DNA of 64,000 bases, taken from the NCBI GenBank assembly GCA_000146045.2, contig BK006942.2, forward strand, positions 352,001 to 416,000, given 5' to 3'. Origin of the DNA: TPA_inf: Saccharomyces. Lineage: Eukaryota. The notes under the pieces are model-generated. The model did not search any database. It was not told the DNA's origin and saw nothing but the letters and a program-made list of their open reading frames with translations. Positions 13,336 to 44,800 of this stretch are shown piece by piece. The position numbers and the translations under genes were made by a program. Position 1 is the first letter of the stretch; each line of letters starts with the position of its first letter.

Positions 13336-13465
13336 ATAATTTTTTCTTTCATCGCATATCTTATATTCATATAGCCTAGAAAAAAATAATCAATATCATA
13401 TTTGTAATTCTACATCCTTTCAGAAATTAGTATACATACGTATCTATAGAAAGCAAATTAAATCT

Positions 13466-16400
13466 TCATGGAAGGGGTGGGGGTGGAGGAATACCTGCAG
13501 GTGGAATTGATGGGATACCTGCAGTAGAAACTGGTTGTGCCCCTTCTTCCTCTTCATCTGTACCAACTGATTCAGGAATCGATAAAACGTCATCATCAGA
13601 ATCGGATCCATATGCGCCCGTGCCTTTTTCAGCACCATTGTAGTTATCAACGTGAGCGATAATAGGTTCTGAAGTGGAAGCTTGTTGAGTTGGTAAAGGT
13701 GGGGGTGGAGGCAAAACGCCTCCAGCTAAAGCTGGGGTGGAAGAACCCGATTTTTGCACGGCAGTAGCTATTGCAGGTGCTGAGGGAATTGGAGGTTCTT
13801 GAAAGCCATCAACAGCAGGCAAAGGGGGAGCCAACGGGACGGGTGGCTCCTGAGTAACAGAAGGTGGTATCGGAGCTATTGGAATAGGACTACTCTTTTC
13901 ATTAGAGGTATTCGCCTGAGGGACAGGGACAGCAGGTGGAACAGGGGTAACAGACGGCAAGGGAGCAGCAGTAACAGGTGGAGCACGTGCATGATCAGGA
14001 TGACCAATCTTTGCTTCTTCAACCTTATTATCTACAGCTACGCGGTTATTACTCTCGTCTTCATCAGACCATCCATCATCCTCGTCCTCATCCAATCCTC
14101 TTTGGATTCTTCTTTGCATTTCTGCAGCGCGAGCATCGAAAGTAGATGTAGAGCTAGCTGATGCATCCTTGAAGTATGGATTATGGCCCATTGTCGTGGA
14201 AGGCAGACCAGTACTGTTCTTACCTGCGGCAGGGGTAACAGCAGCGTGTACCGAGCGAGGAGCATTAGTAGAATTTTGCGAAAAAGCTGCAGATGGTGCC
14301 ACTGGAGCGGCCTGAGGAACGTTCACATGGCCGCCAAAGTTGTCTTTTCCGTTTGTCTCCTCTTCGTCACTTTCATTTTGAGCATCCTCAATTTGCTTAC
14401 GTAAAGCTGCAAGTCTTTTTTCTTTATCAGCCTTTTTTTTAAGTTTCAATCGTTTTAGCTCCTCTTGTAAACGCTTTTCTTCATCATCTTCATCTTCATC
14501 ATCGGATTCTTGCTTTGCATTATATACATTCTGAACAGGTTGAGTTGGTTGAACAGGTTGAGTTGGCTGAACAGGTTGAGTTGGCTGAACAGGTTGAGTT
14601 GGCTGAACAGGTTGAGTTGGTTGAACAGGTTGTGTTGATTGAACAGGTTGAGTTGGTTGAGCGACTTCCACATATTTTTCTTCTTGGAATGGAGTTGCTC
14701 TAGGTTCAACTAAATTGGAAGAACCAGCAATCTGTTGTGGCTGTTCTCGAGAGTTTTCACTGCTAATCGATCTGGAACTTTGAGTAACATTTCGCCTATT
14801 CTTATCAAATTTAGCTAATTTTTCCTTCATTCTCTTTTTTGCCTGTTCTTTCAGATAAGCTGCTCTTTCTTCAGCAGTTTTGAACTGAGAATAAGAAGGC
14901 GACGAGGAACGGTCATCTACAGGGGTTGGTGTTGAGGAAGGCACAAAGGGAGATGACTCAGTCACTGATTTATTTGAATTTGACTTCAGATCATCCAAAA
15001 ATTCACGAACACCATCTTCTAACCCTATGCCAAATTCCCATCTTTCAAATTCTTGATTGGATATCATATTCGATCCTGTCATAGTAGACTTCAAGGATGC
15101 AGAAATATCTGATATAGATGACCTTATGTCTTTAATGATTTCTTGGTTCTTACCATTTTCCTGCTGGATTCTCTTGATTTCAGCACTTTGCTGTTCATCT
15201 TCCATGGAAAGTGAATCCTCCGATTCCGTTGATTTTCCTGTTAGAGCAGACATCCTTGCTCTCAACAAAGCCCTACTCTTAGCTTTCTTCCTATCATTTT
15301 CAGTTATTTCACCATTTGGACCAGATCCAATTATCGAAGAAGGATTTTTTTTTCTATACAACTGAATTTTTGCATTGGTAATCTCATTATCAATTGTAGA
15401 AATTTCATTGAATAGGTTTGGAAGTTTGGCGATGATGGCATCAAAGCGGCTTGTCAAATCTGATGGAATAGAACTGTCATAACAGTTTTCAGGATTGCTG
15501 ATATTTTTGATCTCATTTTCCAGTGAAGCAATATTTTTCAGATTTATTTCTCTTGAAAACCCAGCATATTTTGGTTTCGCTGTCTTCTTTTCAACAGTCT
15601 TATCTACCGAAATGTCATCGGTTTGAAGGGTGCTGCTAGAATGATTAACAGATTTAGCAGATGGTGAAGAAAAAGAAGATTGCTCTTCATTTTTCGCAGA
15701 GTAAACCTTCCTACGATTTCTATAGTTCGGCAAAACATCATCATCATTATTTTTGTAGCTCAAGGCATCGATTTTACCAAACGAAGGTTTTTCTTTTGTG
15801 GTCGTTGGCTCTGTCTTTAATTGGTTCTTTAAGTTGTCTAAAAGTTTTGTGCTGGAGGGAATTAAACTTGAAGGTAGGACATTGGGGATTGGCTTCCCGT
15901 TTAATTTACCGTAAACCAAGTGCATACCTAGTGCAAATTCTTGTTTATTCAATTGGCCGGTGTTGTTTATATCACAAAGGTTCCAAATTTGCTCCAAATC
16001 TGCACGATTTAAGCCAGATTTTCTAAAAATCTCCACAGCAGTGGGGGAATCTAACAAACCTTTGTTTTGAGTATCAAAAGTTTCAAAAATTTTATAAAAC
16101 AAAGATTTTTCCTCCGTGGAAATTTTGTCTTGACTTGAGTTATCAATTAAGTTATTATTAAAGTTGGATTTGGTATAAATTTCGTTATTACCAAATCCTG
16201 TCTTTTGGGCAGTCAACGGCATGGTAGCACTAAAGTTAGATGGTGGTAGAAAACCCGTTGGTTGGGGTTGCAACCCGGTTAACTGAGATTGTAATCCTTG
16301 TTGATTAAAGGACAAATTGGGCATACTTGCAGGACCGCTTTGCTGGGGCATAACGGAACCATATCCTCCGGTATACTGAGATTGCAAAGCACCGCCGGTC

Positions 16401-18416: not shown

Positions 18417-18488
18417 TCCGATATAGTGTAACGGCTATCACATCACGCTTTCACCGTGGAGACCGGGGTTCGACTCCCCGTATCGGAG
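18417..18488 (+). tRNA. tE(UUC): tRNA-Glu, anticodon UUC, 72 nt, intronless.
   Basis: Sequence TCCGATATAGTGTAACGGCTATCACATCACGCTTTCACCGTGGAGACCGGGGTTCGACTCCCCGTATCGGAG matches yeast tRNA-Glu. It has a GTTCGACTCC T-arm (B box), an A-box-like GTGTAACGG, and a CTTTCAC anticodon loop. A T7 run at ~18503-18509 serves as the Pol III terminator. Confidence 0.93.
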
Positions 18489-31555: not shown

Positions 31556-32119
31556 CTACCTGCCCATGTTCCGTCTCTTAATGTCATTCAACAATTTCAA
31601 AGACTTAATCTCGTTAATGTCATTGAGCTTTGCTTTCCAAAACTCATTTTCCTTGTTCAATTGCTCTATACGATCGCGAAGTTTGTTGATTTGCGTGTTT
31701 AAGTTCTGCAGCTTATTCATGTTCTCAAAATTCTTTTGTTTCTTGCGAATGCGGAACCGCTGCGACGCCTCTGTGTTCTTTCTTCTCCGCTCTTGCTTAA
31801 TCTTATCCAGTTCGTTAGAAGTGCTCACGGGAGCTTCCTCTTCTTTTACAACAACTGCTGTTGTTGCGGCAACCTTCCCCTTTCTCGGCTCGCGGAGCTT
31901 CTTAAACTGCGAGACATCCTGGCCATTATTTATCATGCTAATGAGCTCCTCCGCGTTGCCACTGCTAACCAGCAGCAATGATAGCAAGCGCGAGCCCAGC
32001 TCTGAATCGCTTGATATCAGGTTCTGTAGATGTTCCGAAAGATTGTTCACGTTCATACCCTTCCTGCTTGCAATGTCAATGTTTGTTGATTTCTTTTCCC
32101 ACCCTTGTTTCGCACTCAT
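31556..32119 (-). CDS. MET28: bZIP transcriptional co-activator of sulfur metabolism Met28, 187 aa from the internal Met (track ORF extends to 32131).
   Basis: ORF 31556..32131 minus strand. Basic region plus leucine zipper (KQERRRKNTEASQRFRIRKKQ followed by heptad leucines). Confidence 0.85.
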   Translation of the reverse strand: MSAKQGWEKKSTNIDIASRKGMNVNNLSEHLQNLISSDSELGSRLLSLLLVSSGNAEELISMINNGQDVSQFKKLREPRKGKVAATTAVVVKEEEAPVSTSNELDKIKQERRRKNTEASQRFRIRKKQKNFENMNKLQNLNTQINKLRDRIEQLNKENEFWKAKLNDINEIKSLKLLNDIKRRNMGR

Positions 32120-32608
32120 ATTGACGAACAAAACAATTTGTCTTCGTAACTACCACTGGTTATAAATAGTTAAATTCAAGTTACCTCGTGTTCTTAGTCA
32201 TTGGCTGCCCGGCCTTGACTCACGCCAGTGACCTACAACTATGGCGTTTCCGCTTCCCGCCCAAAACTGTGGTGTTAGAAAGTAGAAAAAGGTGAAAAAA
32301 GCGAAACCTAAAACCAAAAAAAAAAAATAAGTCACGTGCACTCAGTACCCCTTCTATTGTATTTTAGTTTACCTATTGGGCCGGGCGGGCCCCACAACTG
32401 TGGCATCTTTCAGATCATTTTTTTCCAGAATGCATGGAACTGACGAGTGAACTTTTATTCCACGGAAAAGGACAAAAAGGTGCAGTAATGGAATGGTCTT
32501 TTTGCACGGCAGTGATGTCGCTATCATATCAATCACTGAAAGTGAAGTTAACCATATTACAACAAGTTCACACAACATAAACAGTGTAACTAGCATATTA
32601 TCACAGTC

Positions 32609-33346
32609 ATGGCTCTACCTCTGATAAAACCTAAGGAGTCTGAGGAAAGCCACCTCGCTCTTTTGTCCAAGATCCACGTGTCCAAAAATTGGAAACTGCC
32701 TCCAAGGTTGCCCCATAGAGCAGCTCAGCGGAGGAAAAGAGTTCATCGACTTCACGAAGATTACGAAACTGAAGAAAATGATGAGGAGCTACAGAAGAAA
32801 AAACGGCAGAATAGAGACGCCCAAAGGGCCTACAGAGAACGCAAAAACAACAAGTTGCAAGTGCTGGAGGAAACCATAGAGTCACTGAGTAAGGTCGTTA
32901 AAAACTACGAAACGAAACTAAACCGCCTCCAAAATGAACTTCAAGCGAAAGAATCGGAAAATCATGCCCTTAAACAGAAATTGGAGACCCTTACTCTGAA
33001 ACAAGCCTCTGTGCCTGCTCAGGACCCTATCCTGCAGAATTTGATCGAGAATTTCAAACCAATGAAGGCGATACCTATTAAGTACAATACCGCTATCAAG
33101 CGCCACCAGCACTCGACAGAACTGCCTAGCTCTGTCAAATGCGGCTTTTGTAACGACAACACTACTTGCGTTTGTAAAGAACTGGAAACAGATCACCGTA
33201 AAAGTGACGACGGTGTGGCCACAGAACAGAAGGATATGTCGATGCCACATGCAGAGTGCAATAATAAAGATAACCCCAATGGGCTCTGTAGTAATTGTAC
33301 TAATATCGACAAATCATGTATCGACATCCGGTCCATCATCCACTGA
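32609..33346 (+). CDS. YAP5: bZIP (YAP-family) iron-responsive transcription factor Yap5, 245 aa.
   Basis: ORF 32609..33346. YAP-type basic region (RQNRDAQRAYRERKNNKLQ), leucine zipper, and a C-terminal Cys-rich domain (CGFCNDNTTCVC...CSNC) consistent with Fe-S sensing. Confidence 0.88.
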   Translation: MALPLIKPKESEESHLALLSKIHVSKNWKLPPRLPHRAAQRRKRVHRLHEDYETEENDEELQKKKRQNRDAQRAYRERKNNKLQVLEETIESLSKVVKNYETKLNRLQNELQAKESENHALKQKLETLTLKQASVPAQDPILQNLIENFKPMKAIPIKYNTAIKRHQHSTELPSSVKCGFCNDNTTCVCKELETDHRKSDDGVATEQKDMSMPHAECNNKDNPNGLCSNCTNIDKSCIDIRSIIH

Positions 33347-35143
33347 AGAGAGAGAACTTCTTAATACTTATAAATACGTCATTGAACAGCTCAACTTTTG
33401 TAACGTCAAAAGAACGCACATGAAAGGAGTGACATTGCTTTTTTCTTTGCAAGTTTATTACTGTGGTTATGTGTAAAGAATTAGTTCATGGACATTGGCC
33501 GCAGAGTGCAAAAGCGTTTTGGACACCCCGCCTTTGGTGTTCTCGCCGCCATATTTTGAGACGTTAGTTTCCGACGAATTGAGCTGAAGCGGTGGACATT
33601 ATCTCAAGGTACCGCTTACTATGCCTATACATTCCTGCAATTTTTTTTTTTTTTTTTTTGATAAGTATTACTGGGTAATGGGAAGTATAATCACTAGGCA
33701 TATTATTTTTGACGCAGAGGAGTGGCAGCCTGTCTACTATGTAAATGTAATGGTAGAACCGTTATTATAACGTAAAATAGATCGTACATAAGAAAAACTG
33801 GACGCAAACCATTTAAATCTAAATGCGAATATGCGTACTGATTATTAACATGATACCATAATTTAGATCTTTCCTTTTGAAAGTCGTGTCAAATTCTAGT
33901 ATTGGCGGATGAGATCCTAATGTGCTAAACAATAGAGATAATGGGATCCCCGCAAATTTCATTTTTAAATTGCTTTCCTCTTCTGAGTTGAACACGAATT
34001 TTTGAGAATCTAGCTGTAGTTAGACGTTACGCAAAAGAAGCTTTGGCGCAAGCAAATCTCCTTCCATACTGGTCTCCTTTACGGCTGTACGAACACTACC
34101 GTAGTGACAAACTGAAAAACGAGGATTTGGTGAGCAGTCTGGAACAGGTAGATGAATCATAAAGCGCAGCAACCATCCTCGAACTGATGACAGTACGACT
34201 TTTCTCCAAAATAGATATAAAGAAAGGCTGGTTATTCGTGGAGAGTTCAGTCCTCCGTATCTAACCTTGATGAATTAAAACTCAGGCCAGAACAATCTCT
34301 TTAACAGACCTCCATACATACTCTCGGAGCTATATTTTAGTGCGATCAAACTGCGAATAGAATAAAGCAGACGCAAGAGGCAAATTACAAACTCTTGCGC
34401 TTCCTTTTTAGCGAGCTTGTTAAAGTAGGGTCTGAACGAGAGGCTGTCACAATTGCGTTGCGTTATGCAAAGGATATAACACGGTGCTGAAGTTAAACTG
34501 TGAAACTATACAAGTGGAGGACCCTTTGAGTTTTCTGTAGATAAAAAGGAGAATGTTTCAGAAGAGCGTCAGAGATCTCGAATGACAGATCGGTGGCTAC
34601 CACGAAATCTTATAGGCGTTTCTCTGGGCTCCCTAGTTACGTATAGCGCTGACGTAGTTTAGAAGGGCGCGCGCATTTTTTCTATTGTTGCCTCTTTTCT
34701 CGCTAGCTGGCTTTTAGCATCATGTTCTGCGGATATTATTCTCCGCCCGGAAGGTTCGTGGAAGGCCTAGAATGAGATCTATCAATAACGCTACGCAGAT
34801 TTCTAATGTTACATGTCACGTCGATCTGACATATATCTCCGTCAGGTTCGATCCAGACTCTCTGCGCGCGTACCAAGAGCTTTTTGTTTCAATAGGAACG
34901 GAATTTCCTTTATTGAATGTGGCAACGAACTGCGGAGGGTTATTAGCTTCTTGACACTTTCTTCGTCCATTACGTAGACCTAACGTTGAAAAGGAGACCT
35001 CGAAGAAATTTTAACTCTTGGCACCTCAGAATAAACAAGGTCATCTAGTGCGATGGCAATGCTTCAAAGTAAATGGAGAATTTCGAAGGCTAGCGTCTCT
35101 AGATAAATCTCAGCCTAACCCTTTTACACGAAGTTTTCCCAAC

Positions 35144-35144
<1 letters not shown>

Positions 35145-35172
<28 letters not shown>
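35145..35172. repeat. Homopolymer A28 tract in the ORF-free region between YAP5 and FLO11. A (GAAAA)5 microsatellite follows at ~35286-35310.
   Basis: Direct reading. Confidence 0.9.
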
Positions 35173-35174
<2 letters not shown>

Positions 35175-37571
35175 AGGGCGGTTGTCTTTGGCATATCGCG
35201 AAAATAATAGATCTTATCAAGGGGTTTTTAAGTCATCCTCTGATTATTGGAAGTCATAATCACGTTCAATGGTGGGAGGCCTTCGGAAAAGAAAAGAAAA
35301 GAAAAGAAAATTTTCTCAATCTGAAACAGTCTCTTGTTTACGTTACACTGGCAATTTTAACGGCGAGACTCATCTGAAAAAAGCTATTCGACTTAGTCCT
35401 GTGTTTTTCATTACAGATAATCCTGATCAACGGGTGTACGTTTTTCCATTTTAGGTCAGTATCCTCCCTCTGTGTTTCAAACTAAGTATAAGCGCCCACC
35501 CTAATTCGCTCGTATCCTTGTGTCAACTTCTTTGCTGCTCTGCAGCTGTAAACAGTTTTTGCGATAAGCCTCACATATGTCAGTGCTGTAAATACCGGAA
35601 ATAGAAAGTCACTGTGGTCTGTACCCTCATTTGATTTACGCGGTTAGAAAAGTGGAAACTCTTTCTTAACCGTGTAAATCAAGTATGTCATTTCAGGAAA
35701 CTTCCTCAATTCTTGGCGTACTATATTGAGTTGCCAATGTATGAGAGTGGTCGATTTCAATCGGCAACATTCTATCTCGCAATTACGCAATAAAAATTGA
35801 CATGGTATGTTATTTTCATCCTTCGGATTTTTCAAACCATTCTGTTATAAGAGATATGTACCATCAATCGCCGACAGCGATACCCTCTTTAACCTCTAGT
35901 AAGAAGGACCCGGCACTTATTGTAATACGTTTAGGGGAAGTAGGTAAATCTGGACCGGTAATACGGCATAACGATCCATTTCGGACATCGGGGACATTTC
36001 TTTTTTTTCCTTTATTATTTTTTTTTTCTAATGTCCTTACGAATTTCAGGCTCTAACCTTATTTCTTATTAGGACGTGTACTCATTGCCATCGCAACAAT
36101 AAAAATAAAACATTAATAAAAAATTAATTAGAGCCTGTAACATAGAGATCAACGCTACTGTAGCGTTAGAAGGACAGTGAGAGAGTGGCATGACAATTAA
36201 AGTTTCTTCCGATTACTTCATGTCATCTGCATTACAAAGGAAGGAAAGATGTTTCGAATTATTTCCCCTTTAAGGTATTTTTGATGTGAAATTTGACCCC
36301 ATACTGTGAAAATCAACTGCTAAGAACTCTGTGATCTTCTAAGATAAAAAGGCGGGCCCCTTTTTTCTTCTATATCTATTTATTATCTAAATATGCTTAC
36401 ATAAGCAAAATATACCGGGGTAGTTAGTGCACGCGGGGAACTACCTCTTTCTTACCGGATCTTGCCGCATCCTTTTTTCTGTTCATTCTCAGAAAAAAGA
36501 GGCTTTTTTTCGTGAATACAGTCCGAAGAGCACTAGAATTTCGGACCGAAATTAGTAATATCTTCTGTACGAAAAAGGAAGACCCCTTTTCGTACAGAAG
36601 CCTTGGTCAATCAGAACAGGCAACGTTGTTTTTTCTACTCCGGAATTTTCTGAGCGAAGACAATCGGCCCTGAAGAGAGGATCAATCGTGGAAATCTACA
36701 TCGTCCTCAAGAATTTCTAACGAGACTTCATGTCAAAATTTAACTTTTTTAGCTTTTTTTTAAGGTTGGCCCGCCAAAATCGTAAGTCTCGGTGCTCTGT
36801 TTAGGAAATAAAGAAGAGAAACGTCACCTAAAAAGTTTAAATTGAAGATGTCGTTCTATCTCGCGAATCTTAAATGAAAGACAGAGTGGGTTGATGACAC
36901 TAGCGGACTTGTCATTAAATAACCCATGATATCTAGGCACATTAAGGTTAGCGTGGGGGGACGCGAATAATATAAGCATTACTCCAGTAAACTCACATAG
37001 AAAGAAGGAAATATTCTTTGTTCAAAGAGCAAAGGTGCCTGTAAAGATCCTCTTATTCATCAAAGCCTGGTCGAAGATTATTAGTTGTGCCAAGGCAATA
37101 TCAGGTTTATTAATCTTTTAGGAAAAATGTAAGGTTGTTACGTCTCTTTCCGTCTCGCGGAAAAACATTTTTACTCAAGCCGTCCGTGGGATGATTTTTG
37201 GTGGTTATCATTTTCCAAGACTCCAGACAAAAGAACGTGCAGGCGCTTGGCAAAAAGAAAAAAAAAAAAAGCGAGAGGGAAAAGTGGCGCGGTGCCAATA
37301 CTACCGGTACTTGTTCTTGAATAAGCTATCAGATGGTCAAAATAGGGCTAGAAGAAAAATGGTAAAATAAAGTAAAAAAAGGTAAAAGATAATTTTTGAA
37401 GAACTAAAAAATATGTAAATGAATATGTATTCTACGGGTAGTTTTCTGCCTTACAAAATTATGGCAGCGAAAACAGAATGGTGGAAGAAAGTAAAGAGGG
37501 TATCGAAATAATATCTTAATTTAAGAATGAAAACATCGTAATGAAGAAACGAACATGTTGGAATTGTATCA

Positions 37572-40500
37572 TTAGAATACAACTGGAAGAGCGAGTAGCA
37601 ACCACATAAAGTTTCCAAGAACCTTGATATTAGCAGCACCTTGGTAAGTACTCGAGATAGAAGGAACAGAGTATGTAGCGACTGCAGAACCAGAAGCAGA
37701 TTGTAGTGGACCAGTTAGAGATGGAGATGTGACAACGGGAGCCACGCTAGAAGCAGAAGCTGTTGTAGCTAGTTGGGATGTAGTCTTGATTGAAATAGGG
37801 TTGGTTGCTGTGGCCACAGTTTCGTAATTCTTGGCACCATTTGAACCTGGAATCAAAGTGGTTATGTAAGTGGTTGGGATGGACTTGGTTGTGTAACCAG
37901 TTGTTGTTTCGCCAGCGGAGTTAGTACCAACAGATGACTCAGTGGTAATAACTGTGGTTGGAATAGCCGTCGTGACAGGGGTGGTAGCCGAAGGTGCAGT
38001 GTTTTCGCCTGCGCTTGCAGAACTTACGATAGTCTTAGCAGAGCATACAGATGTAGTTTCACCGGCAGCGTTTGTAGCAGCAGAACATTCAGTAGTGGTT
38101 ATTGTAGTTGGTACGGCATTAGTGGCAGGAGTTACTGGTGCACTTGGAGCCAAAGTGGTTACATAGGTGGTTGGTACAGACTTTGTTGTGTAACCAGTTG
38201 TCGTCTTACCAGCGGAGTTAGTACCCGTAGAGGATTCAGTGGTAACAACGGTGGTTGTGACAGCTGTTGTAACAAGGGTGGTAGCTTCAGTAGTGTATTC
38301 GCCAGTACCAGTTGAACAAGGAACAGTGGTTGTGACAGTCTTTGGAGAGCATCCAGAGGTAGTTTCACCGGCAGAGTTTGTACCTGTAGAGCAAACCGTA
38401 GTAGTAATAGTGGTTGGGGTGAAATTGGTAACCGTAGTGACTGATGGAGTTGGAGCAATTGTGGTTAGGTAAGTGGTTGGAATGTTTTTGGTGACAAATG
38501 TAGTTGTAATTTCACCACCTGGTTTTGTACTAGTAGAATACTCAGTAGTAACGACGGTGGTTGAGACAACTGTAGTTACAGGTGTGGTAGGTGAAGTGGT
38601 TGTTGATTCCGAGGCGGTTTCGCTTGGACTGGTTGAACATGGAACAGTAGTTGTAATGGTCTTTGGAGAGCATCCAGAGGTAGTTTCACCGGCAGAGTTT
38701 GTTCCTGTAGAGCAAACTGTAGTAGTAATAGTGGTTGTTGATGATGTAGTGACAGAAGTCGTAGTTGTAGTTGGAACAGTAGTTGTAACGGTCTTTGGAG
38801 AGCATCCAGAGGTAGTTTCACCGGCAGAGTTTGTTCCTGTAGAGCAAACCGTAGTGGTAATAGTGGTTGTTGATGGTGTAGTGACAGAAGTCGTAGTTTT
38901 AGTTGGAACAATGGTAGTTTCGGTTGTAGAAGAAACAGAGGTTTCTGTTTGACTGCCAGGGTATTTGGATGATGATGGAGTGACAGTAGTGCCAGTAGAA
39001 AAGCTTTCAGTAGTAGAGCTGAATGGAATTGAAGATGGAGCGGAGGAAGTGATGTTGCTAGAGGAAGATGGGGTTGGTACTGGTGCTACAGAGCTTTCAG
39101 TGGTGGAGCTGGATACTGGAGCAGAAGAGCTTTCAGTAGTAGAGCTTGATGGGGTTGGTACTGGAACAGAAGAGCTTTCAGTGCTAGAGCTGAATGGGGT
39201 TGAAGATGGAGCGGAGGAAGTGATGTTGCTAGAGGAAGATGGGGTTGGTACTGGTGCTACAGAGCTTTCAGTAGTAGAGCTTGATGGGGTTGGTACTGGA
39301 GCAGAAGAGCTTTCGGTAGTAGAGCTGGATGGAGTTGGCACTGGAGCAGAAGAGCTTTCAGTAGTAGAGCTGGATGGAGTTGGTACTGGAGCAGAAGAGC
39401 TTTCAGTGGTAGAGCTGGTTACTGGAGCAGAAGAGCTTTCAGTAGTAGAGCTGGATGGAGTTGGTACTGGAGCAGAAGAGCTTTCAGTAGTAGAGCTGGA
39501 TGGAGTTGGTACTGGAGCAGAAGAGCTTTCAGTAGTAGAGCTGGATGGAGTTGGTACTGGAGCAGAAGAGCTTTCAGTGGTAGAGCTGGTTACTGGAGCA
39601 GAAGAGCTTTCAGTGGTAGAGCTGGTTACTGGAGCAGAAGAGCTTTCAGTAGTAGAGCTGGATGGAGTTGGTACTGGAGCAGAAGAGCTTTCAGTAGTAG
39701 AGCTGGATGGGGTTGGTACTGGAGCAGAAGAGCTTTCAGTAGTAGAGCTGGATGGAGTTGGTACTGGAGCAGAAGAGCTTTCAGTGGTAGAGCTGGTTAC
39801 TGGAGCAGAAGAGCTTTCAGTAGTAGAGCTTGATGGGGTTGGAGCTGGAGCAGAAGAGCTTTCAGTAGTAGAGCTTGATGGAGTTGGTACTGGAGCAGAA
39901 GAGCTTTCAGTAGTAGAGCTTGATGGAGTTGGCACTGGAGCAGAAGAGCTTTCAGTGGTGGAGCTGGTTACTGGAGTAGAAGAGCTTTCAGTAGTAGAGC
40001 TGGATGGAGTTGGTACTGGAGCAGAAGAGCTTTCAGTGGTAGAGCTGGTTACTGGAGCAGAAGAGCTTTCAGTGGTGGAGCTTGATGGGGTTGGAGCTGG
40101 AGCAGAAGAGCTTTCAGTAGTAGAGCTGGATGGAGTTGGTACTGGAGCAGAAGAGCTTTCAGTGGTAGAGCTGGTTACTGGAGCAGAAGAGCTTTCAGTA
40201 GTAGAGCTGGATGGAGTTGGTACTGGAGCAGAAGAGCTTTCAGTGGTAGAGCTGGTTACTGGAGCAGAAGAGCTTTCAGTAGTAGAGCTGGATGGAGTTG
40301 GTACTGGAGCAGAAGAGCTTTCAGTGGTAGAGCTGGTTACTGGAGCAGAAGAGCTTTCAGTGGTAGAGCTGGTTACTGGAGCAGAAGAGCTTTCAGTGGT
40401 AGAGCTGGTTACTGGAGCAGAAGAGCTTTCAGTGGTAGAGCTGGTTACTGGAGCAGAAGAGCTTTCAGTAGTAGAGCTGGATGGAGTTGGTACTGGAGCA

Positions 40501-41675
40501 GAAGAGCTTTCAGTGGTAGAGCTGGTTACTGGAGCAGAAGAGCTTTCAGTGGTAGAGCTGGTTACTGGAGCAGAAGAGCTTTCAGTAGTAGAGCTTGATG
40601 GGGTTGGTACTGGAGCAGAAGAGCTTTCAGTGGTAGAGCTGGTTACTGGAGCAGAAGAGCTTTCAGTAGTAGAGCTGGATGGAGTTGGTACTGGAGCAGA
40701 AGAACTTTCAGTAGTAGAGCTTGATGGGGTTGGTACTGGAGTAGTAGTCTTCTTAGTGCATGTCTTAGATGTGGTAGTTTTCTTCTTTGTACATGGAGTG
40801 GTGTCGTGATGAGGAGGTGTAGGCTTTTCCTTTGTGCATGAGGTAGTGGTTGGGGGTGTAGGCTTTTCCTTAGTGCATGAGGTAGTGGTTGGTGTAGCAG
40901 GAGCGGTGGTTGATGATGATGTAGATGACTCGGAAGTGCTAGATGTAGTGGTAGATGACTCGGAAGTGCTAGATGTAGTGGTAGATGACTCGGAAGTGCT
41001 AGATGTAGTGGTAGATGACTCGGAAGTGCTAGATGTAGTGGTAGATGACTTCGTACCGCCACAATTATTGTCACAATCTATGTTCCAATAGAAGCCTGGG
41101 AAATCCGTTTGAGAGTGGCCTTGATTGTCATAGTTGTTACAACCAGTAGACAAATCAAAAGATGTAGTTCCCCATTGCCAGGAGCTTGCATATTGAGCGG
41201 CACTACCTTGCAAATACTCGAATTGAATTTGGAAGTTAGGCATCCACACCTGACAGCTGTTGACATCTTGTGTGGCATAAACTTCAAAAGTGGCTGTGAA
41301 ATCAGTTGGGTTGTCAATCAAATAGGTATTTTCGTTGTAACCGTATAGTTGGACGGTACCTTTTGGACCAGTGACACCAATGATTTTCAAAGACCATAGA
41401 TACTTCAGGTCAATATTTTCTTTACCTTTGACATGAATAGTGATTTGGTATGTGTTGTCTTGAACCCAAGAAACGGAAGTCACATCCAAAGTATACTGCA
41501 TGATATTTTGCTGGTCCATGTGCCAATTGAAGTCTAAGTTGGGACAGCCATTAACGATAGAATTACAGCTAGTTCCTTCGGAGGATCCTCTTGGAACTAG
41601 TGCAGTTGGAAAACCCAAAGCCGAGTTAAATAGAAGCGAAAGGACCAAATAAGCGAGTAGAAATGGTCTTTGCAT
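37572..41675 (-). CDS. FLO11: GPI-anchored cell-surface flocculin/adhesin Flo11 (Muc1), 1367 aa: signal peptide, N-terminal Flo11 adhesion domain, very long Ser/Thr-rich tandem-repeat stalk, C-terminal GPI signal.
   Basis: ORF 37572..41675 minus strand. N-terminus MQRPFLLAYLVLSLLFNSALG. Central ~1.8 kb of near-perfect tandem repeats encodes SSTTESSSAPVPTPS-type units. Hydrophobic C-terminus (NFMWLLLALPVVF) preceded by small residues, consistent with a GPI omega site. Confidence 0.95.
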   Translation of the reverse strand: MQRPFLLAYLVLSLLFNSALGFPTALVPRGSSEGTSCNSIVNGCPNLDFNWHMDQQNIMQYTLDVTSVSWVQDNTYQITIHVKGKENIDLKYLWSLKIIGVTGPKGTVQLYGYNENTYLIDNPTDFTATFEVYATQDVNSCQVWMPNFQIQFEYLQGSAAQYASSWQWGTTSFDLSTGCNNYDNQGHSQTDFPGFYWNIDCDNNCGGTKSSTTTSSTSESSTTTSSTSESSTTTSSTSESSTTTSSTSESSTSSSTTAPATPTTTSCTKEKPTPPTTTSCTKEKPTPPHHDTTPCTKKKTTTSKTCTKKTTTPVPTPSSSTTESSSAPVPTPSSSTTESSSAPVTSSTTESSSAPVPTPSSSTTESSSAPVTSSTTESSSAPVTSSTTESSSAPVPTPSSSTTESSSAPVTSSTTESSSAPVTSSTTESSSAPVTSSTTESSSAPVTSSTTESSSAPVPTPSSSTTESSSAPVTSSTTESSSAPVPTPSSSTTESSSAPVTSSTTESSSAPVPTPSSSTTESSSAPAPTPSSSTTESSSAPVTSSTTESSSAPVPTPSSSTTESSSTPVTSSTTESSSAPVPTPSSSTTESSSAPVPTPSSSTTESSSAPAPTPSSSTTESSSAPVTSSTTESSSAPVPTPSSSTTESSSAPVPTPSSSTTESSSAPVPTPSSSTTESSSAPVTSSTTESSSAPVTSSTTESSSAPVPTPSSSTTESSSAPVPTPSSSTTESSSAPVPTPSSSTTESSSAPVTSSTTESSSAPVPTPSSSTTESSSAPVPTPSSSTTESSSAPVPTPSSSTTESSVAPVPTPSSSSNITSSAPSSTPFSSSTESSSVPVPTPSSSTTESSSAPVSSSTTESSVAPVPTPSSSSNITSSAPSSIPFSSTTESFSTGTTVTPSSSKYPGSQTETSVSSTTETTIVPTKTTTSVTTPSTTTITTTVCSTGTNSAGETTSGCSPKTVTTTVPTTTTTSVTTSSTTTITTTVCSTGTNSAGETTSGCSPKTITTTVPCSTSPSETASESTTTSPTTPVTTVVSTTVVTTEYSTSTKPGGEITTTFVTKNIPTTYLTTIAPTPSVTTVTNFTPTTITTTVCSTGTNSAGETTSGCSPKTVTTTVPCSTGTGEYTTEATTLVTTAVTTTVVTTESSTGTNSAGKTTTGYTTKSVPTTYVTTLAPSAPVTPATNAVPTTITTTECSAATNAAGETTSVCSAKTIVSSASAGENTAPSATTPVTTAIPTTVITTESSVGTNSAGETTTGYTTKSIPTTYITTLIPGSNGAKNYETVATATNPISIKTTSQLATTASASSVAPVVTSPSLTGPLQSASGSAVATYSVPSISSTYQGAANIKVLGNFMWLLLALPVVF
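38950..40760. repeat. Coding minisatellite inside FLO11: dozens of head-to-tail copies of ~30- and ~45-nt units (…gcagaagagctttcagtagtagagctggatggagttggtactgga… on the + strand). Flanking shorter arrays sit at 40895-41050 (30 nt x4, coding SSTSESSTTT) and 38630-38900.
   Basis: Direct reading. The same 30-45 nt motif recurs almost perfectly across ~1.8 kb. This generates the long artefactual antisense ORF 38965..40809 in the track. Confidence 0.95.
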
Positions 41676-41883
41676 AGTGTGCGTATATGGATTTTTGAGG
41701 CCTACAAAAGTATATTTTAATTAGAACCACAACATGACGAGGGATAATAACTGATGAATAGGGTGCTTTTTATACGTTTATTTTAGGAAGCAAGAGATCC
41801 TTTTTATCAATTGGGAACCCTTCAACAATTTGTACTGGTAAGTCTATGAGTTATCCGTTCTTGAACTAGAAGAGAGCGCAGTA

Positions 41884-44800
41884 ACGTAAATGCTTGAACA
41901 TATTTGTTAAGGTAAATAAAACTGCCCTAATTTTTTATTTAATTCGAACACGGACATTCCTCAGATAAGACAAGTCTAACAGTTAATTCAAAGTAGAAAG
42001 AGCTTAATTTCTCCGTAAAAGAACGAAGTATATTGCGATGATGCCTTGAATCCCAATTGGTAACTCTATGACATTTTTGTAAAGGTTACCTCATCAGAAG
42101 AGAACGGACCTAAAAAGATGACCCACATTTCTCTAGAAACAATCGTACCCTAATAGTTGCTTTAAATTGCTCAGCGGTCAAGAAAACGTATCATAATGTT
42201 ATTCTATTCTTGAGCAGGCACTTTTAGGGTTGGGCAATGTCCTCAAAGTAAATATTAGTAAACAAACGAATACCTCCAAATCCATTGAATTGAAAATCCA
42301 TTCCAAGCTCTGCGCTTCCAATTGTTAATCACACCACCGATAGGCAATAGAAGTTCTGTCCGTGAAGATACCGCAGAATGAGTTGTGCCCGTATTGTTGC
42401 ACCTAATTACGGAATCCCAAGGTATGCGATGTCCCAGTACGACCGTTAAAAAGACAACATGAATGACTGATCTGTTTAAGAGTATAGGCAGAAATAAAAA
42501 AGTTTGTGCAATGCCTGACAAAAAAAAGCTAATTTTTCTTTTAAGAAAGAATGTCATTCTTTTACCGCAAAGTTAATTTCTGCCTACAATCACCTTCTAA
42601 ACGCTCGGACTGATTGCCTTGAGCAATCAGCAGTTCTTTGAAGCCACTGTCGCAACAAAGAAAAAGAAAAGGGAAGTCCATTCTTAGCCCCAAAGAAAAG
42701 GATGACAAAAAAAAGAAAAAAAGTTAACTCGTACCAGTAAAGCCTAATTTTGCAGTGATCGCTAGCCCCAGAGAAGGACTAAAGACAAAAAGGACCCACT
42801 CGATAGGAAAATAACGGCCGAAACTCTTTGGGCGACATTTTCTTGTTAAGAAAACAGAAGAAAAAAACCTTAATTTGAACTTTCCAGGCACACCCAAAAA
42901 GGATTATGCTTATGTAATGCCACATTCCGAGAAACTGAAAGGCAAAAAAGAAAAAGCCTTTTTTTTCCTGCCGCGAAAGTTTAATTTGCCTACCGGCGTT
43001 CCTATTGGAGTCAGGAAAAGATCACTAGGAATTACAGCTGTGAGAACATACTCTGGGGCTGGCGTAGGCACACAATCCGGTATTCCTAAAGTTTTGTGGT
43101 ACAAAACTCCATACCTAAAACATAAAACAAATCTCACCCGTGGATCCTTTTATTCATAATACCCCGTCCTGCACGCCGTGGAACTGAGTCTAAGTTGACA
43201 AGGCTACGAATGAATTTTGGGAAATGCATACGAAGAGGACTGAAAAAGTAGCAGGTTTCATGTGGTGGAAATACCGATTAGCGCATTCACATTCGTGTTA
43301 GGGTCCGTTTTCCCGCACAGCTTTCGAAATATGAAACAATGTCCGTCTGCGTCAGCAGCTCAGATAAGGAAAAAAGAGATGGTAAAAAACATTCGAGAAA
43401 AACAAGTACTGCAGGTGCATGTCCTCAATGCATGCAAGTGACCGTTTTGGGGTGGTGAGAACCATCACTAATTAAACTTTTCCTATTTTTTGTCTTTACA
43501 ATATTCATTAGTCTTCATTCGCATTGGGTGTTCTACAGAAATGCTGGGCAAATCTGGAGATGGGTTGATACGCTAGCGTTCCTACTTGTAAGGGAGCAAA
43601 GATGTTAGATTTTTCTGTTTTGGAATTTTAGCTTTCTGTCCACCTTAGGTGTATGGCTCGGCTCTCGATGAGAATAGGAAAGTATTCCGCACTAACCGAT
43701 GGGGGGTTGTTCTTACCGTAAAACCACACTTGAAAGCTATACGTAGTTGGAACCCCAAAACGACGGTATGAAATGAGGGATACATTAGGGGACAAAAAGG
43801 ACTAGTAATTTCTTTGAAATTTGTAATAATAATTCGAAAAGTTGAGCATCCTTAATCTGACATGGCACACAGATGAAAAGGTGTTGAAAGCACTGTAAAA
43901 GAGGTTAAGAAATATCCTCTTTTCAACGAGCTTCATTTTGAGTATAATATGTTTATATTTGTCGCTGGCCCTGAGATGCTCAACTGTAAGTAAAACATCG
44001 GATGTGTGGATAAAAAGAACATGGAAAACGAGTGCAGCAACGACTATATTTAAAATAGTATCATTCATAATTCGATAGATGGACTTTTCAGCTACTTGTA
44101 AACGGCGAAATTGTGTCTAAGTTGTGAATGAGCTTTTCATTTTCATTTGCGTACCGAAGTGGTAAAACTGACGACCTAAAGTACGATATACGGAATAAAG
44201 CAAGTTCTAATACTCTCTGCAGTTTGACCAGTGCTACTTGGCGCTGTTCATTCCAATTAGCCGTAAATTTGTGAAATAGATCCCAAGATAATCTCCGTTT
44301 TATTTGCTTCCAAAGAGGTTATCTTTTTAATAGTTGGCATTTTCTAGCTTCTTGGTTGCTATAAGGCATAGTTGAAGTGCAGTGAGAGGAAGAGGGGAAC
44401 TCACGGAAAGAGACTCCTTATACTTTTGTCAACCGGTGTGTTCCAAAATTCGCTAGTTAAACGTTTTATTAGCAGCGGTCCCATTGAGCCAAAACCCCGC
44501 TGAGCGTTGCGACACAATCTGATCATACCACATAATCATTGCAGCGCCTACTTTTTAACTTCTAGCAGCCAAATTGTTATTCAGATTTAGTTGGCGGTAC
44601 GACTCCTTACAGCAGTAAATTATTCGAATTAGTAACAAACGAGTGATTGGTATGTGGAGATAGGAAACGAAGACTGAGCAGAAGCACCCACGCTAAGTAA
44701 TTGTATTCTTGAATTGGGAGCCTGAAGAATTATGATCAAGCTCAGCATCTTTCCGTAGCGTCTTCGAGAATTTGTCCTGTGAGCGGAAGGTTGAAAGTTA

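What the first reader, a model, noticed from the sequence alone, without database searches (positions are those of the whole stretch)
33347..37571. A 4.2 kb ORF-poor gap 3' of FLO11 that is unusually long for yeast
The interval between the YAP5 stop (33346) and the FLO11 stop (37572) has no ORF above 119 aa in any frame. The longest, 35018-35377(+), owes its length to the A28 tract encoding poly-Lys and is almost certainly not a gene. Typical yeast convergent or tandem intergenic regions are 0.2-0.6 kb. The region has a comparatively GC-rich, low-complexity-poor character around 34.4-34.75 kb and 36.3-36.7 kb, unlike the AT-rich terminators elsewhere in the window. That suggests functional non-coding content: an unannotated ncRNA, a replication origin, a boundary or insulator element for the silenced FLO11 locus, or a decayed gene relic. 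I recall a small reference ORF (YIR018C-A) in this gap, but I cannot place it from sequence.
Basis: inference. Interest (0 to 1): 0.6.

Follow-up and report, generated by a model that had tools for sequence, protein, structure and literature searches.

The report
Dead FLO11-like gene and its control region
The 4.2 kb gene-free stretch behind the yeast adhesin gene FLO11 is real and is kept in all seven Saccharomyces species examined; it looks like the leftovers of a second, now dead FLO11-like gene next to about 3 kb of regulatory-looking DNA that is still partly conserved.

Summary
Window 33347-37571 (4225 bp, between the YAP5 and FLO11 stops) has no ORF beyond chance and is 14 times the window's median intergenic length. 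It is intact in no other species.

The gap exists in all seven Saccharomyces species examined (3.3-5.5 kb) with no gene called in it. It has two layers:
- **Left, about 1.1 kb next to YAP5.** Unconstrained and variable in length (0.37-2.46 kb). In S. eubayanus this part holds a Flo11-domain pseudogene (Pfam PF10182, 30-36 bits, with stops and frameshifts) in FLO11's orientation. S. uvarum keeps a fragment of it.
- **Right, about 3.1 kb (34429-37571).** Colinear and nearly constant in length across the genus. It contains conserved blocks (34429-34928; 36601-37060) made of short islands that look like transcription-factor sites.

I found no RNA family, tRNA, base-pair covariation, exact origin consensus or conserved small ORF.

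Best reading: the scar of a dead FLO11-like tandem gene plus its former long upstream region, part of which is still under selection. No relic is detectable in S. cerevisiae itself, so the dead gene may be specific to the S. eubayanus/S. uvarum lineage. One S. cerevisiae isolate lacks 34508-37336, so the region is not essential. Moderate interest; a new member of known kinds.

The parts
33347..37571 (.). Whole gene-free interval between the YAP5 stop and the FLO11 stop (4225 bp)
   Evidence: ORF lists. The shuffle test shows its ORF content is at chance level. An equivalent gap of 3253-5492 bp, with no gene called in it, is present in six other Saccharomyces species. It is 4.1-4.25 kb in the three other S. 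cerevisiae strains with a called FLO11 end; one further strain carries a 2.8 kb deletion.
33347..34428 (.). Variable, unconstrained left segment. Putative scar of the body of a dead FLO11-like gene (inferred).
   Evidence: Identity to other species is far below the intergenic baseline: S. mikatae 0.37-0.42, S. kudriavzevii 0.14-0.16. The equivalent segment is 373 bp in S. kudriavzevii, about 1.2 kb in S. uvarum and about 2.46 kb in S. eubayanus. In S. eubayanus it holds the Flo11-domain pseudogene L008:12404-12734(-). No relic is detectable here in S. cerevisiae: the best Flo11-profile score is 2.1 bits, reached by 27 of 1000 shuffles.
33564..33701 (-). YIR018C-A, a 45-codon orphan ORF. It is the only annotated feature I recall in the gap.
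   Evidence: Its translation is an exact match to NP_878099.1, YIR018C-A of S288C. It is not intact in any of the six other species. Its K6 run comes from the S. cerevisiae-specific T19 tract. It is listed among differentially expressed genes in PMC4022668, and one peptide is listed in PMC12786128.
33641..33659 (.). T19 tract, specific to S. cerevisiae
   Evidence: Homopolymer scan of all seven gaps.
34429..34928 (.). Conserved block 2, with promoter-like content: repeated GAGATCT-type islands, CGCGC followed by a T-run, and CGG-N10-CCG
Evidence: A DNA profile built from three species finds it in S. kudriavzevii (E 3e-29), S. eubayanus (3e-19), S. uvarum (3e-13) and S. arboricola (8e-6, about 90 bp only), in colinear order. 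Alignment. In S. eubayanus it lies 0.5-0.95 kb upstream of the N-terminus of the Flo11-domain relic. The transcription-factor names are from memory and were not tested.
35144..35172 (.). A29 tract, specific to S. cerevisiae. It creates the 119-codon open frame.
35170..35528 (.). Weaker conserved patch between the two blocks
   Evidence: Profile match to S. eubayanus gap positions 3131-3467, E 1e-12, in colinear order.
35898..37571 (.). Right-hand region that aligns in every species
   Evidence: BLASTN and profile matches to all six species. Mean identity is at the intergenic baseline: 0.65/0.60/0.54/0.53/0.52.
36562..36600 (.). Perfect 14-bp inverted repeat (CTTCTGTACGAAAA ... TTTTCGTACAGAAG)
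   Evidence: Folding energy -14.5 kcal/mol, z = -6.9, with 0 of 200 shuffles folding as well. A shorter palindrome sits at the same place in the presumed S. paradoxus contig. Its role is unknown.
36601..37060 (.). Conserved block 1, a cluster of short invariant islands 0.5-1.0 kb beyond the FLO11 stop
   Evidence: Identity 0.81/0.71/0.68/0.57/0.62/0.60, above the baseline. Islands seen: CCAATCGTGGAAATCTACATC; ACGTCAA; TAAGGTTGGCCCGCC; GACGTCA; ATGACAC..TGTCAT; TCTAGGCAC paired with GTGCCT; CGTGGGGG; and GAAnnTTC with a spacer that varies among species. No base-pair covariation in 36860-37060, the part that was folded. No conserved ORF. Within-species diversity is lower than in the flanks, pi 0.0175 against 0.022-0.035.
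37337..37571 (-). FLO11 3' end region (3'UTR and terminator, inferred)
   Evidence: Conserved in all species, including ATATGTAAAT at 37410-37420, which reads TACATA on the FLO11 strand. This is exactly the part kept in the isolate that carries the 2.8 kb deletion. The poly(A)-signal reading is from general knowledge and was not tested.
34508..37336 (.). Segment absent from one natural S. cerevisiae isolate (a 2829-bp deletion)
   Evidence: Locus L018 (GCA_949124415.1) aligns to window 32609-34507 at 99.6% and then directly to 37337-38778 at 98.2%, with no N in the locus.

Best explanation
The gap is non-coding DNA with two evolutionary layers.

**Layer 1, next to YAP5 (33347 to about 34428).** This is neutrally decaying DNA. 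It is probably the deletion scar of a second FLO11-like adhesin gene that once lay downstream of FLO11, in the same orientation.
- The gene is still recognisable as a Flo11-domain pseudogene in S. eubayanus, and as a fragment in S. uvarum.
- In S. cerevisiae nothing of it can be recognised. The segment carries only the species-specific 45-codon ORF YIR018C-A.

**Layer 2, the remaining 3.1 kb (34429-37571).** This lies upstream of the dead gene's start. It is about as long as FLO11's own giant promoter, so it is most simply read as the dead gene's former control region.
- It is still colinear, almost constant in length, and conserved in patches made of short islands that look like transcription-factor sites.
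- Part of it is therefore probably still used as regulatory DNA.
- The likely uses are a promoter for non-coding or YIR018C-A transcription running towards YAP5, a downstream control region acting on FLO11 chromatin, or both.

**Shown:** the anatomy, the conservation pattern, the relic in two sister species, and the absence of any ORF, RNA-family or origin signature.

**Inferred:** that the S. cerevisiae left segment descends from the relic, that the 3.1 kb was its promoter, and what it does now.
For: **The gap is old and conserved in layout.**
- It is present, with no called gene, in all seven species.
- The distance from block 2 to the FLO11 stop is about 3030-3140 bp in S. cerevisiae, 3032 in S. 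eubayanus, 3093 in S. uvarum, 2880 in S. kudriavzevii and 2406 in S. arboricola.
- The YAP5-side segment, by contrast, varies from 373 to 2460 bp.

**The relic is real in sister species.**
- tblastn against S. cerevisiae Flo11 residues 38-161 gives E 1e-8, with four in-frame stops and a frameshift.
- A family profile gives E 3e-7, with colinear pieces in two frames covering profile positions 9-176 of 182.
- Pfam PF10182 scores 30.3 bits in a single frame and 35.9 bits after frameshift correction, against a cut-off of 25.
- S. uvarum keeps the N-terminal fragment STVVDVYPNL, against NTVVDGCPNL in S. eubayanus, next to internal deletions. The pseudogene therefore predates the split of those two species.
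- The relic's N-terminus points at block 2, 0.5 kb away.

**Part of the 3.1 kb is constrained.**
- Block 1 is above the local intergenic baseline.
- Block 2 is recovered at E down to 3e-29.
- Diversity within S. cerevisiae is lower in block 1 and in the FLO11-proximal 0.5 kb than in the rest of the gap.

**Other points.**
- The FLO11 locus does duplicate its A domain: S. mikatae has two and S. kudriavzevii three in one ORF.
- A minus-strand product of the left segment is reported in two data sets.
Against: **No relic is detectable in S. cerevisiae.**
- Pfam finds nothing in six frames at E<=10.
- tblastn and the family profile are at noise level.
- The one weak, positionally plausible match scores 2.1 bits, is reached by 2.7% of shuffles, and is absent from the closest two species.
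- The relic could therefore be a duplication specific to the S. eubayanus/S. uvarum lineage.

**No link to the FLO11 promoter.** No DNA similarity was found between the gap and the FLO11 promoter.

**Constraint is modest.**
- Conservation of the right part as a whole only equals ordinary intergenic DNA.
- It is well below the FLO11 promoter, which is 0.79/0.69/0.66 identical to S. mikatae/arboricola/uvarum.
- Block 2 shows no reduced polymorphism.

**The region is dispensable.** A natural isolate lacks 34508-37336.

**Untested here.** No transcript, chromatin or binding data could be consulted. The transcription-factor assignments are from memory.
Confidence: 0.5

Rival explanations
1. Inert spacer. 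The whole interval is leftover DNA with no present function. It persists only because deletions are slow to accumulate, and the apparent conservation is residual similarity.
For: - The left 2.5 kb is far below the intergenic baseline.
- Diversity among S. cerevisiae strains is very high across the gap, pi 0.013-0.035.
- One isolate has lost 2829 bp of it.
- S. kudriavzevii and S. arboricola have shortened it to 3.3 and 3.6 kb.
- There is no ORF, RNA family or exact origin motif.
Against: - Block 1 exceeds the baseline of ten neighbouring, presumably functional intergenic regions in every species.
- Its conservation is concentrated in 8-20 bp invariant islands separated by indels.
- Block 2 is recovered at E 3e-29 to 3e-13 in three species and colinearly in a fourth, while the DNA next to it cannot be aligned at all.
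- The block-2-to-FLO11 distance is held within 0-16%.
Confidence: 0.2
2. A downstream control or insulating region of FLO11 itself, unrelated to any dead gene. The conserved blocks would bind FLO11 regulators or co-repressors and help set or confine the chromatin state of the FLO11 locus. The S. eubayanus relic would be a later, lineage-specific insertion.
For: - Conserved islands lie 0.5-1.0 kb beyond the FLO11 stop.
- By my recollection they resemble sites of heat-shock-factor-type, CRE-type and C2H2 repressor-type factors. This was not tested.
- Non-syntenic Flo11-family genes in Naumovozyma dairenensis and Kazachstania africana also sit between multi-kb ORF-free stretches: 6.4 and 4.9 kb, and 3.5 kb.
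- No relic is detectable outside the S. eubayanus/S. uvarum lineage.
Against: - Nothing ties the blocks to FLO11 rather than to a transcript of their own.
- The isolate with the deletion keeps FLO11 and its 3' end.
- The papers found by my searches describe FLO11 control from the 5' side only.
- The relic's orientation and its distance to block 2 fit a promoter relationship.
Confidence: 0.17
3. A gene for a non-coding RNA lies in the gap and accounts for the conservation. It could be structured, or a regulatory long RNA like ICR1/PWR1 on the other side of FLO11.
For: - Promoter-like conserved blocks with no conserved ORF.
- YIR018C-A is listed among differentially expressed genes in one study.
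- The FLO11 5' side is known to work through such RNAs.
Against: - For a structured RNA: no Rfam match at E<=1.
- The consensus fold of 36860-37060 rests on invariant palindromes, with a covariation term of +0.11 and no compensatory support.
- Conservation is island-like rather than continuous.
- An unstructured long RNA is not excluded. It overlaps with the best explanation.
Confidence: 0.08
4. A replication origin occupies the gap.
For: The region is long, gene-free and has AT-rich stretches. There are seven one-mismatch ACS matches in the gap, 1.7 per kb against 1.1 per kb in the whole window.
Against: - None of the six exact ACS matches in the window lies in the gap.
- Only one near-match is conserved, at 37410. 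It lies in the FLO11 3' end and reads as a poly(A) efficiency-type element on the FLO11 strand.
- The long A/T tracts are specific to S. cerevisiae.
Confidence: 0.03
5. An overlooked protein-coding gene, small or species-restricted, explains the interval.
For: YIR018C-A is annotated, and a peptide is listed in one proteomics table.
Against: - None of the 17 ATG ORFs of 30 aa or more, YIR018C-A included, is intact even in the closest species.
- No Pfam match in any frame.
- ORF lengths are at chance level.
- The ORF covers only 138 of the 4225 bp.
Confidence: 0.02

Closest known systems
Gene relics (decayed pseudogenes) in yeast intergenic regions
   Same: The long intergenic interval harbours, in S. 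eubayanus, a frame-broken copy of a neighbouring gene family's domain (Flo11, PF10182), with progressive deletion in S. uvarum. The left segment evolves without detectable constraint.
   Different: In S. cerevisiae itself the relic cannot be recognised by tblastn, Pfam or a family profile. Membership for this window therefore rests on position only.
The FLO11 upstream control region (about 3-3.5 kb promoter with the ICR1/PWR1 non-coding RNAs)
   Same: Both are multi-kb and ORF-free, flank a Flo11-family coding region on its 5' side (here the dead copy), and are conserved in islands. The ICR1/PWR1 mechanism is described in the reviews read.
   Different: There is no detectable sequence similarity between the two. 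The 3' gap is less conserved: block 1 is 0.71/0.57/0.62 identical against 0.79/0.69/0.66 for the proximal 1.4 kb of promoter. No transcripts or factor binding are documented for the gap in the papers found.
BSC1 (YDL037C), the other Flo11-domain gene of S. cerevisiae
   Same: It shows that Flo11-domain paralogues exist in the genus; Bsc1p is 65% identical to the Flo11 A domain.
   Different: The S. eubayanus relic scores better against FLO11 (phmmer 1e-16) than against Bsc1p (8e-12). It also lies next to FLO11. By my recollection BSC1 is on another chromosome.
Species-specific orphan ORFs of S. cerevisiae (de novo candidates)
   Same: YIR018C-A is 45 codons, lies in otherwise non-coding DNA, depends on a species-specific T tract, and is disrupted in all other species.
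   Different: Whether it is translated to any purpose is unknown. It occupies 3% of the interval and does not explain the gap.

Membership tests
Flo11-family gene relic (pseudogene) | Significant similarity of the S. cerevisiae interval to the Flo11 domain (PF10182 or a family profile) | tested here: not met
   Pfam finds no match at E<=10 in six frames. The best tblastn E-value is 3.3. The family profile gives E>2. Restricted to the predicted segment and strand, the score is 2.1 bits, reached by 27 of 1000 shuffles, and the match is not shared by the two closest species.
Flo11-family gene relic (pseudogene) | Recognisable, disabled copy at the homologous position in a related genome | tested here: met
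   S. eubayanus L008:12404-12734(-) scores 30.3 and 35.9 bits on PF10182 (cut-off 25), with four in-frame stops and frameshifts. S. uvarum keeps a fragment.
Flo11-family gene relic (pseudogene) | Descent of the S. cerevisiae segment from that copy (the relic was present in the common ancestor) | tested here: inconclusive
   The position relative to conserved block 2 agrees. No sequence homology to the left segment was found outside the species' own clade. A lineage-specific duplication is not excluded.
Yeast regulatory intergenic DNA (promoter / UAS-URS region) | Conservation above the local neutral or intergenic level, concentrated in short motif-sized islands | tested here: met
   Blocks 34429-34928 and 36601-37060.
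Yeast regulatory intergenic DNA (promoter / UAS-URS region) | Transcription initiation, nucleosome depletion or factor occupancy at the element | not testable with these tools
   No expression, MNase or ChIP data are available here. The literature searches found nothing for this interval.
Replication origin (ARS) | Match to the 11-bp ARS consensus WTTTAYRTTTW | tested here: not met
   There are 0 exact matches in the gap and 6 elsewhere in the window. Seven one-mismatch sites exist. Only one is conserved, and it lies in the FLO11 3' end.
Replication origin (ARS) | ORC/MCM binding or plasmid maintenance activity | not testable with these tools
   This needs an experiment or origin maps.
Structured non-coding RNA gene | Match to a described RNA family | tested here: not met
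   No Rfam match at gathering score or at E<=1 with permissive filters. No tRNA or tmRNA.
Structured non-coding RNA gene | Compensatory base-pair changes across species | tested here: not met
   RNAalifold on 36860-37060 in six species (the plus strand as given) gives a covariation term of +0.11. 23 of 24 pairs show no change on both sides. Only this 200-bp part of block 1 was tested.
Protein-coding gene | Open reading frame kept intact in related species | tested here: not met
   All 17 ATG ORFs of 30 aa or more, including YIR018C-A, are disrupted in every other species.
tDNA-type chromatin boundary | A tRNA gene in the interval | tested here: not met
   The only tRNA gene of the window is at 18417-18488.

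The most novel reading that the evidence does not exclude
The 3.1 kb between block 2 and the FLO11 stop is the control region of an extinct FLO11 twin that has outlived its gene because it was co-opted. On this reading it still fires non-coding transcription or recruits co-repressors. It would then be one of the cis elements behind the position-dependent, heritable on/off switching of FLO11, or an antisense regulator of YAP5. The natural 2.8 kb deletion allele would be a ready-made test strain.
Probability: 0.15. Interest if true: 0.6.

Novelty: new member of a known kind. Interest (0 to 1): 0.4.

Why it matters
FLO11 is the standard model for epigenetic, variegated control of a cell-surface adhesin. 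In the papers I could search, its regulation is described entirely from the 5' side.

- **A possible missing piece of FLO11 control.** A 3 kb block of length-conserved, patchily conserved DNA sits on the 3' side. If it acts on FLO11 or YAP5, part of the locus's cis-regulatory logic has been overlooked.
- **Birth and death at the locus.** The S. eubayanus pseudogene, and the two- and three-domain FLO11 genes of S. mikatae and S. kudriavzevii, show that the locus undergoes duplication and loss. This gives a concrete historical explanation for one of the longest gene-free intervals in this part of the yeast genome.
- **If the blocks are inert.** The interval is then a well-delimited, naturally deletable stretch of neutral DNA. 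That would make it useful as an integration site or a neutral-rate reference.

Tried and rejected
- **Bacterial-type promoter and terminator scan.** Irrelevant for yeast and at chance level.
- **Pfam on DNA references.** Repeated with stops masked, with no hits.
- **Word-indexed protein search with the relic's conceptual translation.** The family was obtained instead by an exhaustive search with the Flo11 A domain and a named search.
- **A 'ghost' Flo11 domain in S. cerevisiae at 33719-34201(-).** It has the C-x5-GC-x2-L-x-F and F-x3-TGC patterns in one frame at the predicted place. I rejected it as evidence because 2.7% of shuffles score as well and neither S. paradoxus nor S. mikatae shares it.
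- **Homology between the gap and the FLO11 promoter.** No repeats and no profile match.
- **Ser/Thr-rich repeat remnants or strand skew** downstream of the S. eubayanus relic: none.
- **DNA similarity of the relic to S. eubayanus FLO11.** Only a 44-bp patch, so the duplication cannot be dated.
- **Literature.** No paper in the library discusses the interval, a 3' transcript of FLO11, ChIP probes for it, or a FLO11 relic.
- **Outgroup synteny.** The Flo11-family genes of N. dairenensis and K. africana are not next to a YAP5 homologue, so they do not date the tandem copy.

Full report
**1. The observation**

The window carries YAP5 at 32609-33346(+). An exact look-up confirms the protein as Yap5p of S. 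cerevisiae. A 1367-aa ORF lies at 37572-41675(-). Its N-terminal domain is the Flo11 domain (PF10182), 95-100% identical to S. cerevisiae FLO11 entries.

Between the two stop codons lie 4225 bp.
It runs through an A29 tract.
- With ATG starts the maximum is 84 codons.
- The longest stop-free run is 120 codons. Dinucleotide shuffles of the same DNA give 108 +/- 22, and 26% of shuffles reach 120.

The interval therefore has exactly the ORF content of non-coding sequence. It is 14 times the median intergenic length of this window (296 bp). Only the FLO11 promoter side comes close.

From memory, window coordinate + 352000 equals the S288C chromosome IX coordinate. This fits, but nothing in the analysis depends on it.

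**2. The gap is old**

I used Yap5 orthologues to fetch the homologous loci of six species:
- S. mikatae, S. kudriavzevii, S. arboricola, S. uvarum and S. eubayanus (named records).
- A contig that I take to be S. paradoxus. Its Yap5 is 88% identical, and it comes from a synthetic metagenome that also holds the S. mikatae and S. kudriavzevii contigs. The species label is not given.

The FLO11 stop was located in each locus by tblastn. Every species has the same convergent YAP5/FLO11 arrangement with nothing called in between. Gap lengths in bp:

| Species | Gap length |
|---|---|
| S. cerevisiae | 4225 |
| presumed S. paradoxus | 4262 |
| S. mikatae | 4073 |
| S. kudriavzevii | 3253 |
| S. arboricola | 3569 |
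| S. uvarum | 4300 |
| S. eubayanus | 5492 |

Of eight other S. cerevisiae assemblies fetched, the three with a called FLO11 end have gaps of 4.1-4.25 kb. One assembly has a 2.8 kb deletion.

**3. What is not there**

- No tRNA and no Rfam family, even at E<=1 with permissive filters.
- No Pfam domain in any of the six frames.
- None of the 17 ATG ORFs of 30 codons or more, YIR018C-A included, is intact in any other species, not even the closest.
- None of the window's six exact matches to the ARS consensus lies in the gap. Of seven one-mismatch sites, only one is conserved. It sits 150 bp beyond the FLO11 stop and reads as a TACATA-type element on the FLO11 strand.
- The two long homopolymer tracts, T19 at 33641 and A29 at 35144, are specific to S. 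cerevisiae.

**4. Conservation compared with a local baseline**

I aligned ten neighbouring intergenic regions and third codon positions of ten neighbouring genes to the same species. I then aligned the gap in seven species. Identity to S. cerevisiae:

| Region | S. mikatae | S. kudriavzevii | S. arboricola | S. uvarum | S. eubayanus |
|---|---|---|---|---|---|
| Ten neighbouring intergenic regions | 0.64 | 0.55 | 0.52 | 0.52 | 0.51 |
| Third codon positions | 0.66 | 0.61 | 0.60 | 0.56 | 0.54 |
| Gap, 33347-35900 | 0.48 | 0.28 | 0.29 | 0.31 | 0.41 |
| Gap, 35901-37571 | 0.65 | 0.60 | 0.54 | 0.53 | 0.52 |
| Block 1, 36601-37060 | 0.71 | 0.68 | 0.57 | 0.62 | 0.60 |

- The stretch 33347-35900 is far below baseline. 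It is only 0.66 identical to the presumed S. paradoxus.
- The stretch 35901-37571 equals the baseline.
- Block 1 exceeds the baseline in every species.
- For comparison, the proximal 1.4 kb of the FLO11 promoter is higher still: 0.79 (S. mikatae), 0.69 (S. arboricola) and 0.66 (S. uvarum).

A DNA profile built from the three closest species is more sensitive than pairwise BLAST (coordinates mapped). It shows:
- A second conserved block at 34429-34928. It matches S. kudriavzevii (E 3e-29), S. eubayanus (3e-19), S. uvarum (3e-13) and S. arboricola (8e-6, about 90 bp only).
- A weaker patch at 35170-35528 (S. eubayanus, 1e-12).
- All matches are colinear.

The distance from block 2 to the FLO11 stop is nearly constant. 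It is 3028-3142 bp in S. cerevisiae (depending on the anchor point), 3032 in S. eubayanus, 3093 in S. uvarum, 2880 in S. kudriavzevii and 2406 in S. arboricola. The segment between the YAP5 stop and block 2 varies more than six-fold, from 373 bp in S. kudriavzevii through about 1.1 kb in S. cerevisiae to 2.46 kb in S. eubayanus.

The gap therefore consists of a variable, unconstrained left segment and a length-conserved, patchily conserved right segment of about 3.1 kb. The second is marginal.

**5. The nature of the conserved blocks**

*Block 1.* Conservation is concentrated in invariant islands of 8-20 bp, separated by substitutions and by indels that are not multiples of three. The islands are:
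- CCAATCGTGGAAATCTACATC
- two ACGTCA elements
- TAAGGTTGGCCCGCC
- ATGACAC...TGTCAT
- TCTAGGCAC, with an inverted GTGCCT about 95 bp away
- CGTGGGGG
- a GAAnnTTC element whose two spacer bases differ among species while the flanks stay fixed

*Block 2.* It contains repeated GAGATCT-type islands, CGCGC followed by a T run, and CGG-N10-CCG.

This pattern is typical of transcription-factor binding DNA. I recall resemblances to CRE-type, heat-shock-factor-type (the family that includes the FLO11 repressor Sfl1), Mig/Nrg-type and Rsc3-type sites. I could not test them, so they are leads only.

A consensus fold of 36860-37060 (the plus strand as given) rests entirely on invariant palindromes, with a covariation term of +0.11 and no compensatory support. 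A structured RNA is therefore unsupported, at least for that stretch.

Within S. cerevisiae, diversity is lower in block 1 (pi 0.0175) and in the last 0.5 kb (0.013) than in the rest of the gap (0.021-0.035). Block 2 is not lower (0.025).

**6. A dead FLO11-like gene in sister species**

A tblastn search with the Flo11 N-terminal domain, run only to find FLO11 ends, hit a second place in S. eubayanus, inside the gap. It lies at L008:12404-12734 on the minus strand, the same orientation as FLO11.
- The alignment covers Flo11 residues 38-161 at E 1e-8. It contains four in-frame stops and a frameshift, yet keeps GCPNLxFxW and VWMPNFQIQxxYLxG.
- A profile built from 75 family representatives finds colinear pieces in two frames covering profile positions 9-176 of 182, at E 3e-7.
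- Pfam PF10182 scores 30.3 bits on one frame and 35.9 bits on the frameshift-corrected translation, against a curated cut-off of 25.
- The relic scores slightly better against FLO11 than against the other Flo11-domain gene of the genus, BSC1 (1e-16 against 8e-12).
- Only 44 bp remain similar to S. eubayanus FLO11 at the DNA level, so it is old.
- S. uvarum retains the N-terminal fragment (STVVDVYPNL against NTVVDGCPNL) next to several internal deletions. The pseudogene therefore predates the split of those two species and is being whittled away by deletion.

The relic lies in the variable left segment. Its N-terminus points at block 2, 0.5 kb away. This is the geometry of a gene and its upstream region.

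**7. Is the relic in S. cerevisiae?**

Not detectably.
- tblastn, Pfam and the family profile are at noise level in S. cerevisiae and in four other species.
- One weak match lies at the place and strand predicted by synteny (33719-34201, minus strand), with the cysteine patterns of the domain in one frame.
- Its score of 2.1 bits is reached by 27 of 1000 shuffles, and the closest two species do not share it. I do not count it as evidence.

The claim that the S. cerevisiae left segment descends from the same dead gene is therefore an inference. It rests on position, on the lack of constraint, and on the length variability of exactly that segment. The alternative is a duplication specific to the S. 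eubayanus/S. uvarum branch, and it remains open.

**8. Interpretation**

My best reading (confidence about 0.5) has two parts.
- The left segment is the scar of a FLO11-like tandem gene.
- The 3.1 kb to its right was that gene's upstream control region. It is comparable in size to FLO11's own promoter, and parts of it are still under selection and so still in use.

What the region does today is not shown. The candidates are:
- A promoter for non-coding transcription running through YIR018C-A towards the YAP5 3' end. YIR018C-A is listed among differentially expressed genes in one study, and a peptide is listed in another.
- A downstream regulatory or co-repressor-binding region for FLO11.

Two findings argue against a strong function. 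One S. cerevisiae isolate (GCA_949124415.1) lacks 34508-37336 precisely while keeping the FLO11 3' end. Polymorphism across the gap is high.

The rivals are inert spacer (0.2), a FLO11 3' control region unrelated to the relic (0.17), a non-coding RNA gene (0.08), an origin (0.03) and an overlooked coding gene (0.02).

**9. Comparison with what is known, and novelty**

- Gene relics in yeast intergenic DNA and species-specific orphan ORFs are known kinds.
- The FLO11 5' region, with its ICR1/PWR1 RNAs, is the closest functional analogue. It shares no detectable sequence with the gap.
- I found no paper in the searchable library that discusses this interval, a FLO11 relic, or 3' elements of FLO11. 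That library is incomplete, so absence there is not proof of novelty.

I rate the finding as a new member of known kinds, and of moderate interest. The anatomy is now clear and the evolutionary story is plausible. The functional question is directly testable, with a natural deletion allele at hand.

Noticed in passing
L001:17674-19152 (S. mikatae) and L003:16896-19730 (S. kudriavzevii): The FLO11 ORF of S. mikatae contains two complete Flo11 A domains, and that of S. kudriavzevii contains three. Each scores 286-295 bits on the family profile. S. cerevisiae, S. arboricola, S. uvarum and S. eubayanus have one. This is internal duplication of the adhesion domain.
   Followed up: partly
L018:7901 (GCA_949124415.1), equivalent to window 34508-37336: One S. 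cerevisiae isolate carries a clean 2829-bp deletion. It removes most of the gap, including both conserved blocks, but keeps 235 bp beyond the FLO11 stop. The strain's identity and phenotype are unknown.
   Followed up: partly
window 33347-38000 compared with L011-L017: Nucleotide diversity among nine S. cerevisiae sequences is very high across the gap (pi 0.013-0.035). Divergence from this window reaches 5.4-5.6% in 35901-36600, where the difference counts fall into three groups (about 38-39, 22-23 and 10-13 differences). The FLO11 3' coding end is also about 2% diverged. The loci were chosen for having an identical Yap5 protein, so YAP5 itself is not a fair comparison.
   Followed up: partly
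L009:3554-10000 and 11021-15959 (Naumovozyma dairenensis); L010:6513-10000 (Kazachstania africana): Flo11-family genes at non-syntenic positions in other genera also sit between multi-kb ORF-free stretches: 6.4 kb upstream and 4.9 kb downstream in N. dairenensis, and 3.5 kb upstream in K. africana. Long empty flanks may be a general trait of this gene family.
   Followed up: partly
window 36562-36600: A perfect 14-bp inverted repeat (z = -6.9 against shuffles), built around ACGAAAA / TTTTCGT. A shorter palindrome lies at the same place in the presumed S. paradoxus contig, and the repeat is degraded in S. mikatae.
   Followed up: partly
window 41676-43075: The proximal 1.4 kb of the FLO11 promoter is much more conserved than ordinary intergenic DNA here: 0.79/0.69/0.66 to S. 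mikatae/arboricola/uvarum, against 0.64/0.52/0.52. It rises to 0.80-0.86 around 42676-43075.
   Followed up: no
window 36705-36720: A CATTCY element is present at the same aligned position in the presumed S. paradoxus, S. kudriavzevii, S. arboricola, S. uvarum and S. eubayanus. It reads AATTTC in this S. cerevisiae sequence and CATTGT in S. mikatae. From memory CATTCY is the Tec1 site; this was not tested.
   Followed up: no
window 5228-5238 and five other sites: There are six exact matches to the ARS consensus in the window against 2.3 expected, all outside the gap. The one at 5228 lies in the intergenic region between the ORFs that end at 4895 and start at 5415.
   Followed up: no
window 31556-32165: Two long ATG ORFs overlap almost completely on opposite strands: 31556-32119(-), 187 aa, and 31566-32165(+), 199 aa. 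Annotated orthologous loci call the minus-strand one, which has a bZIP_2 domain.
   Followed up: no
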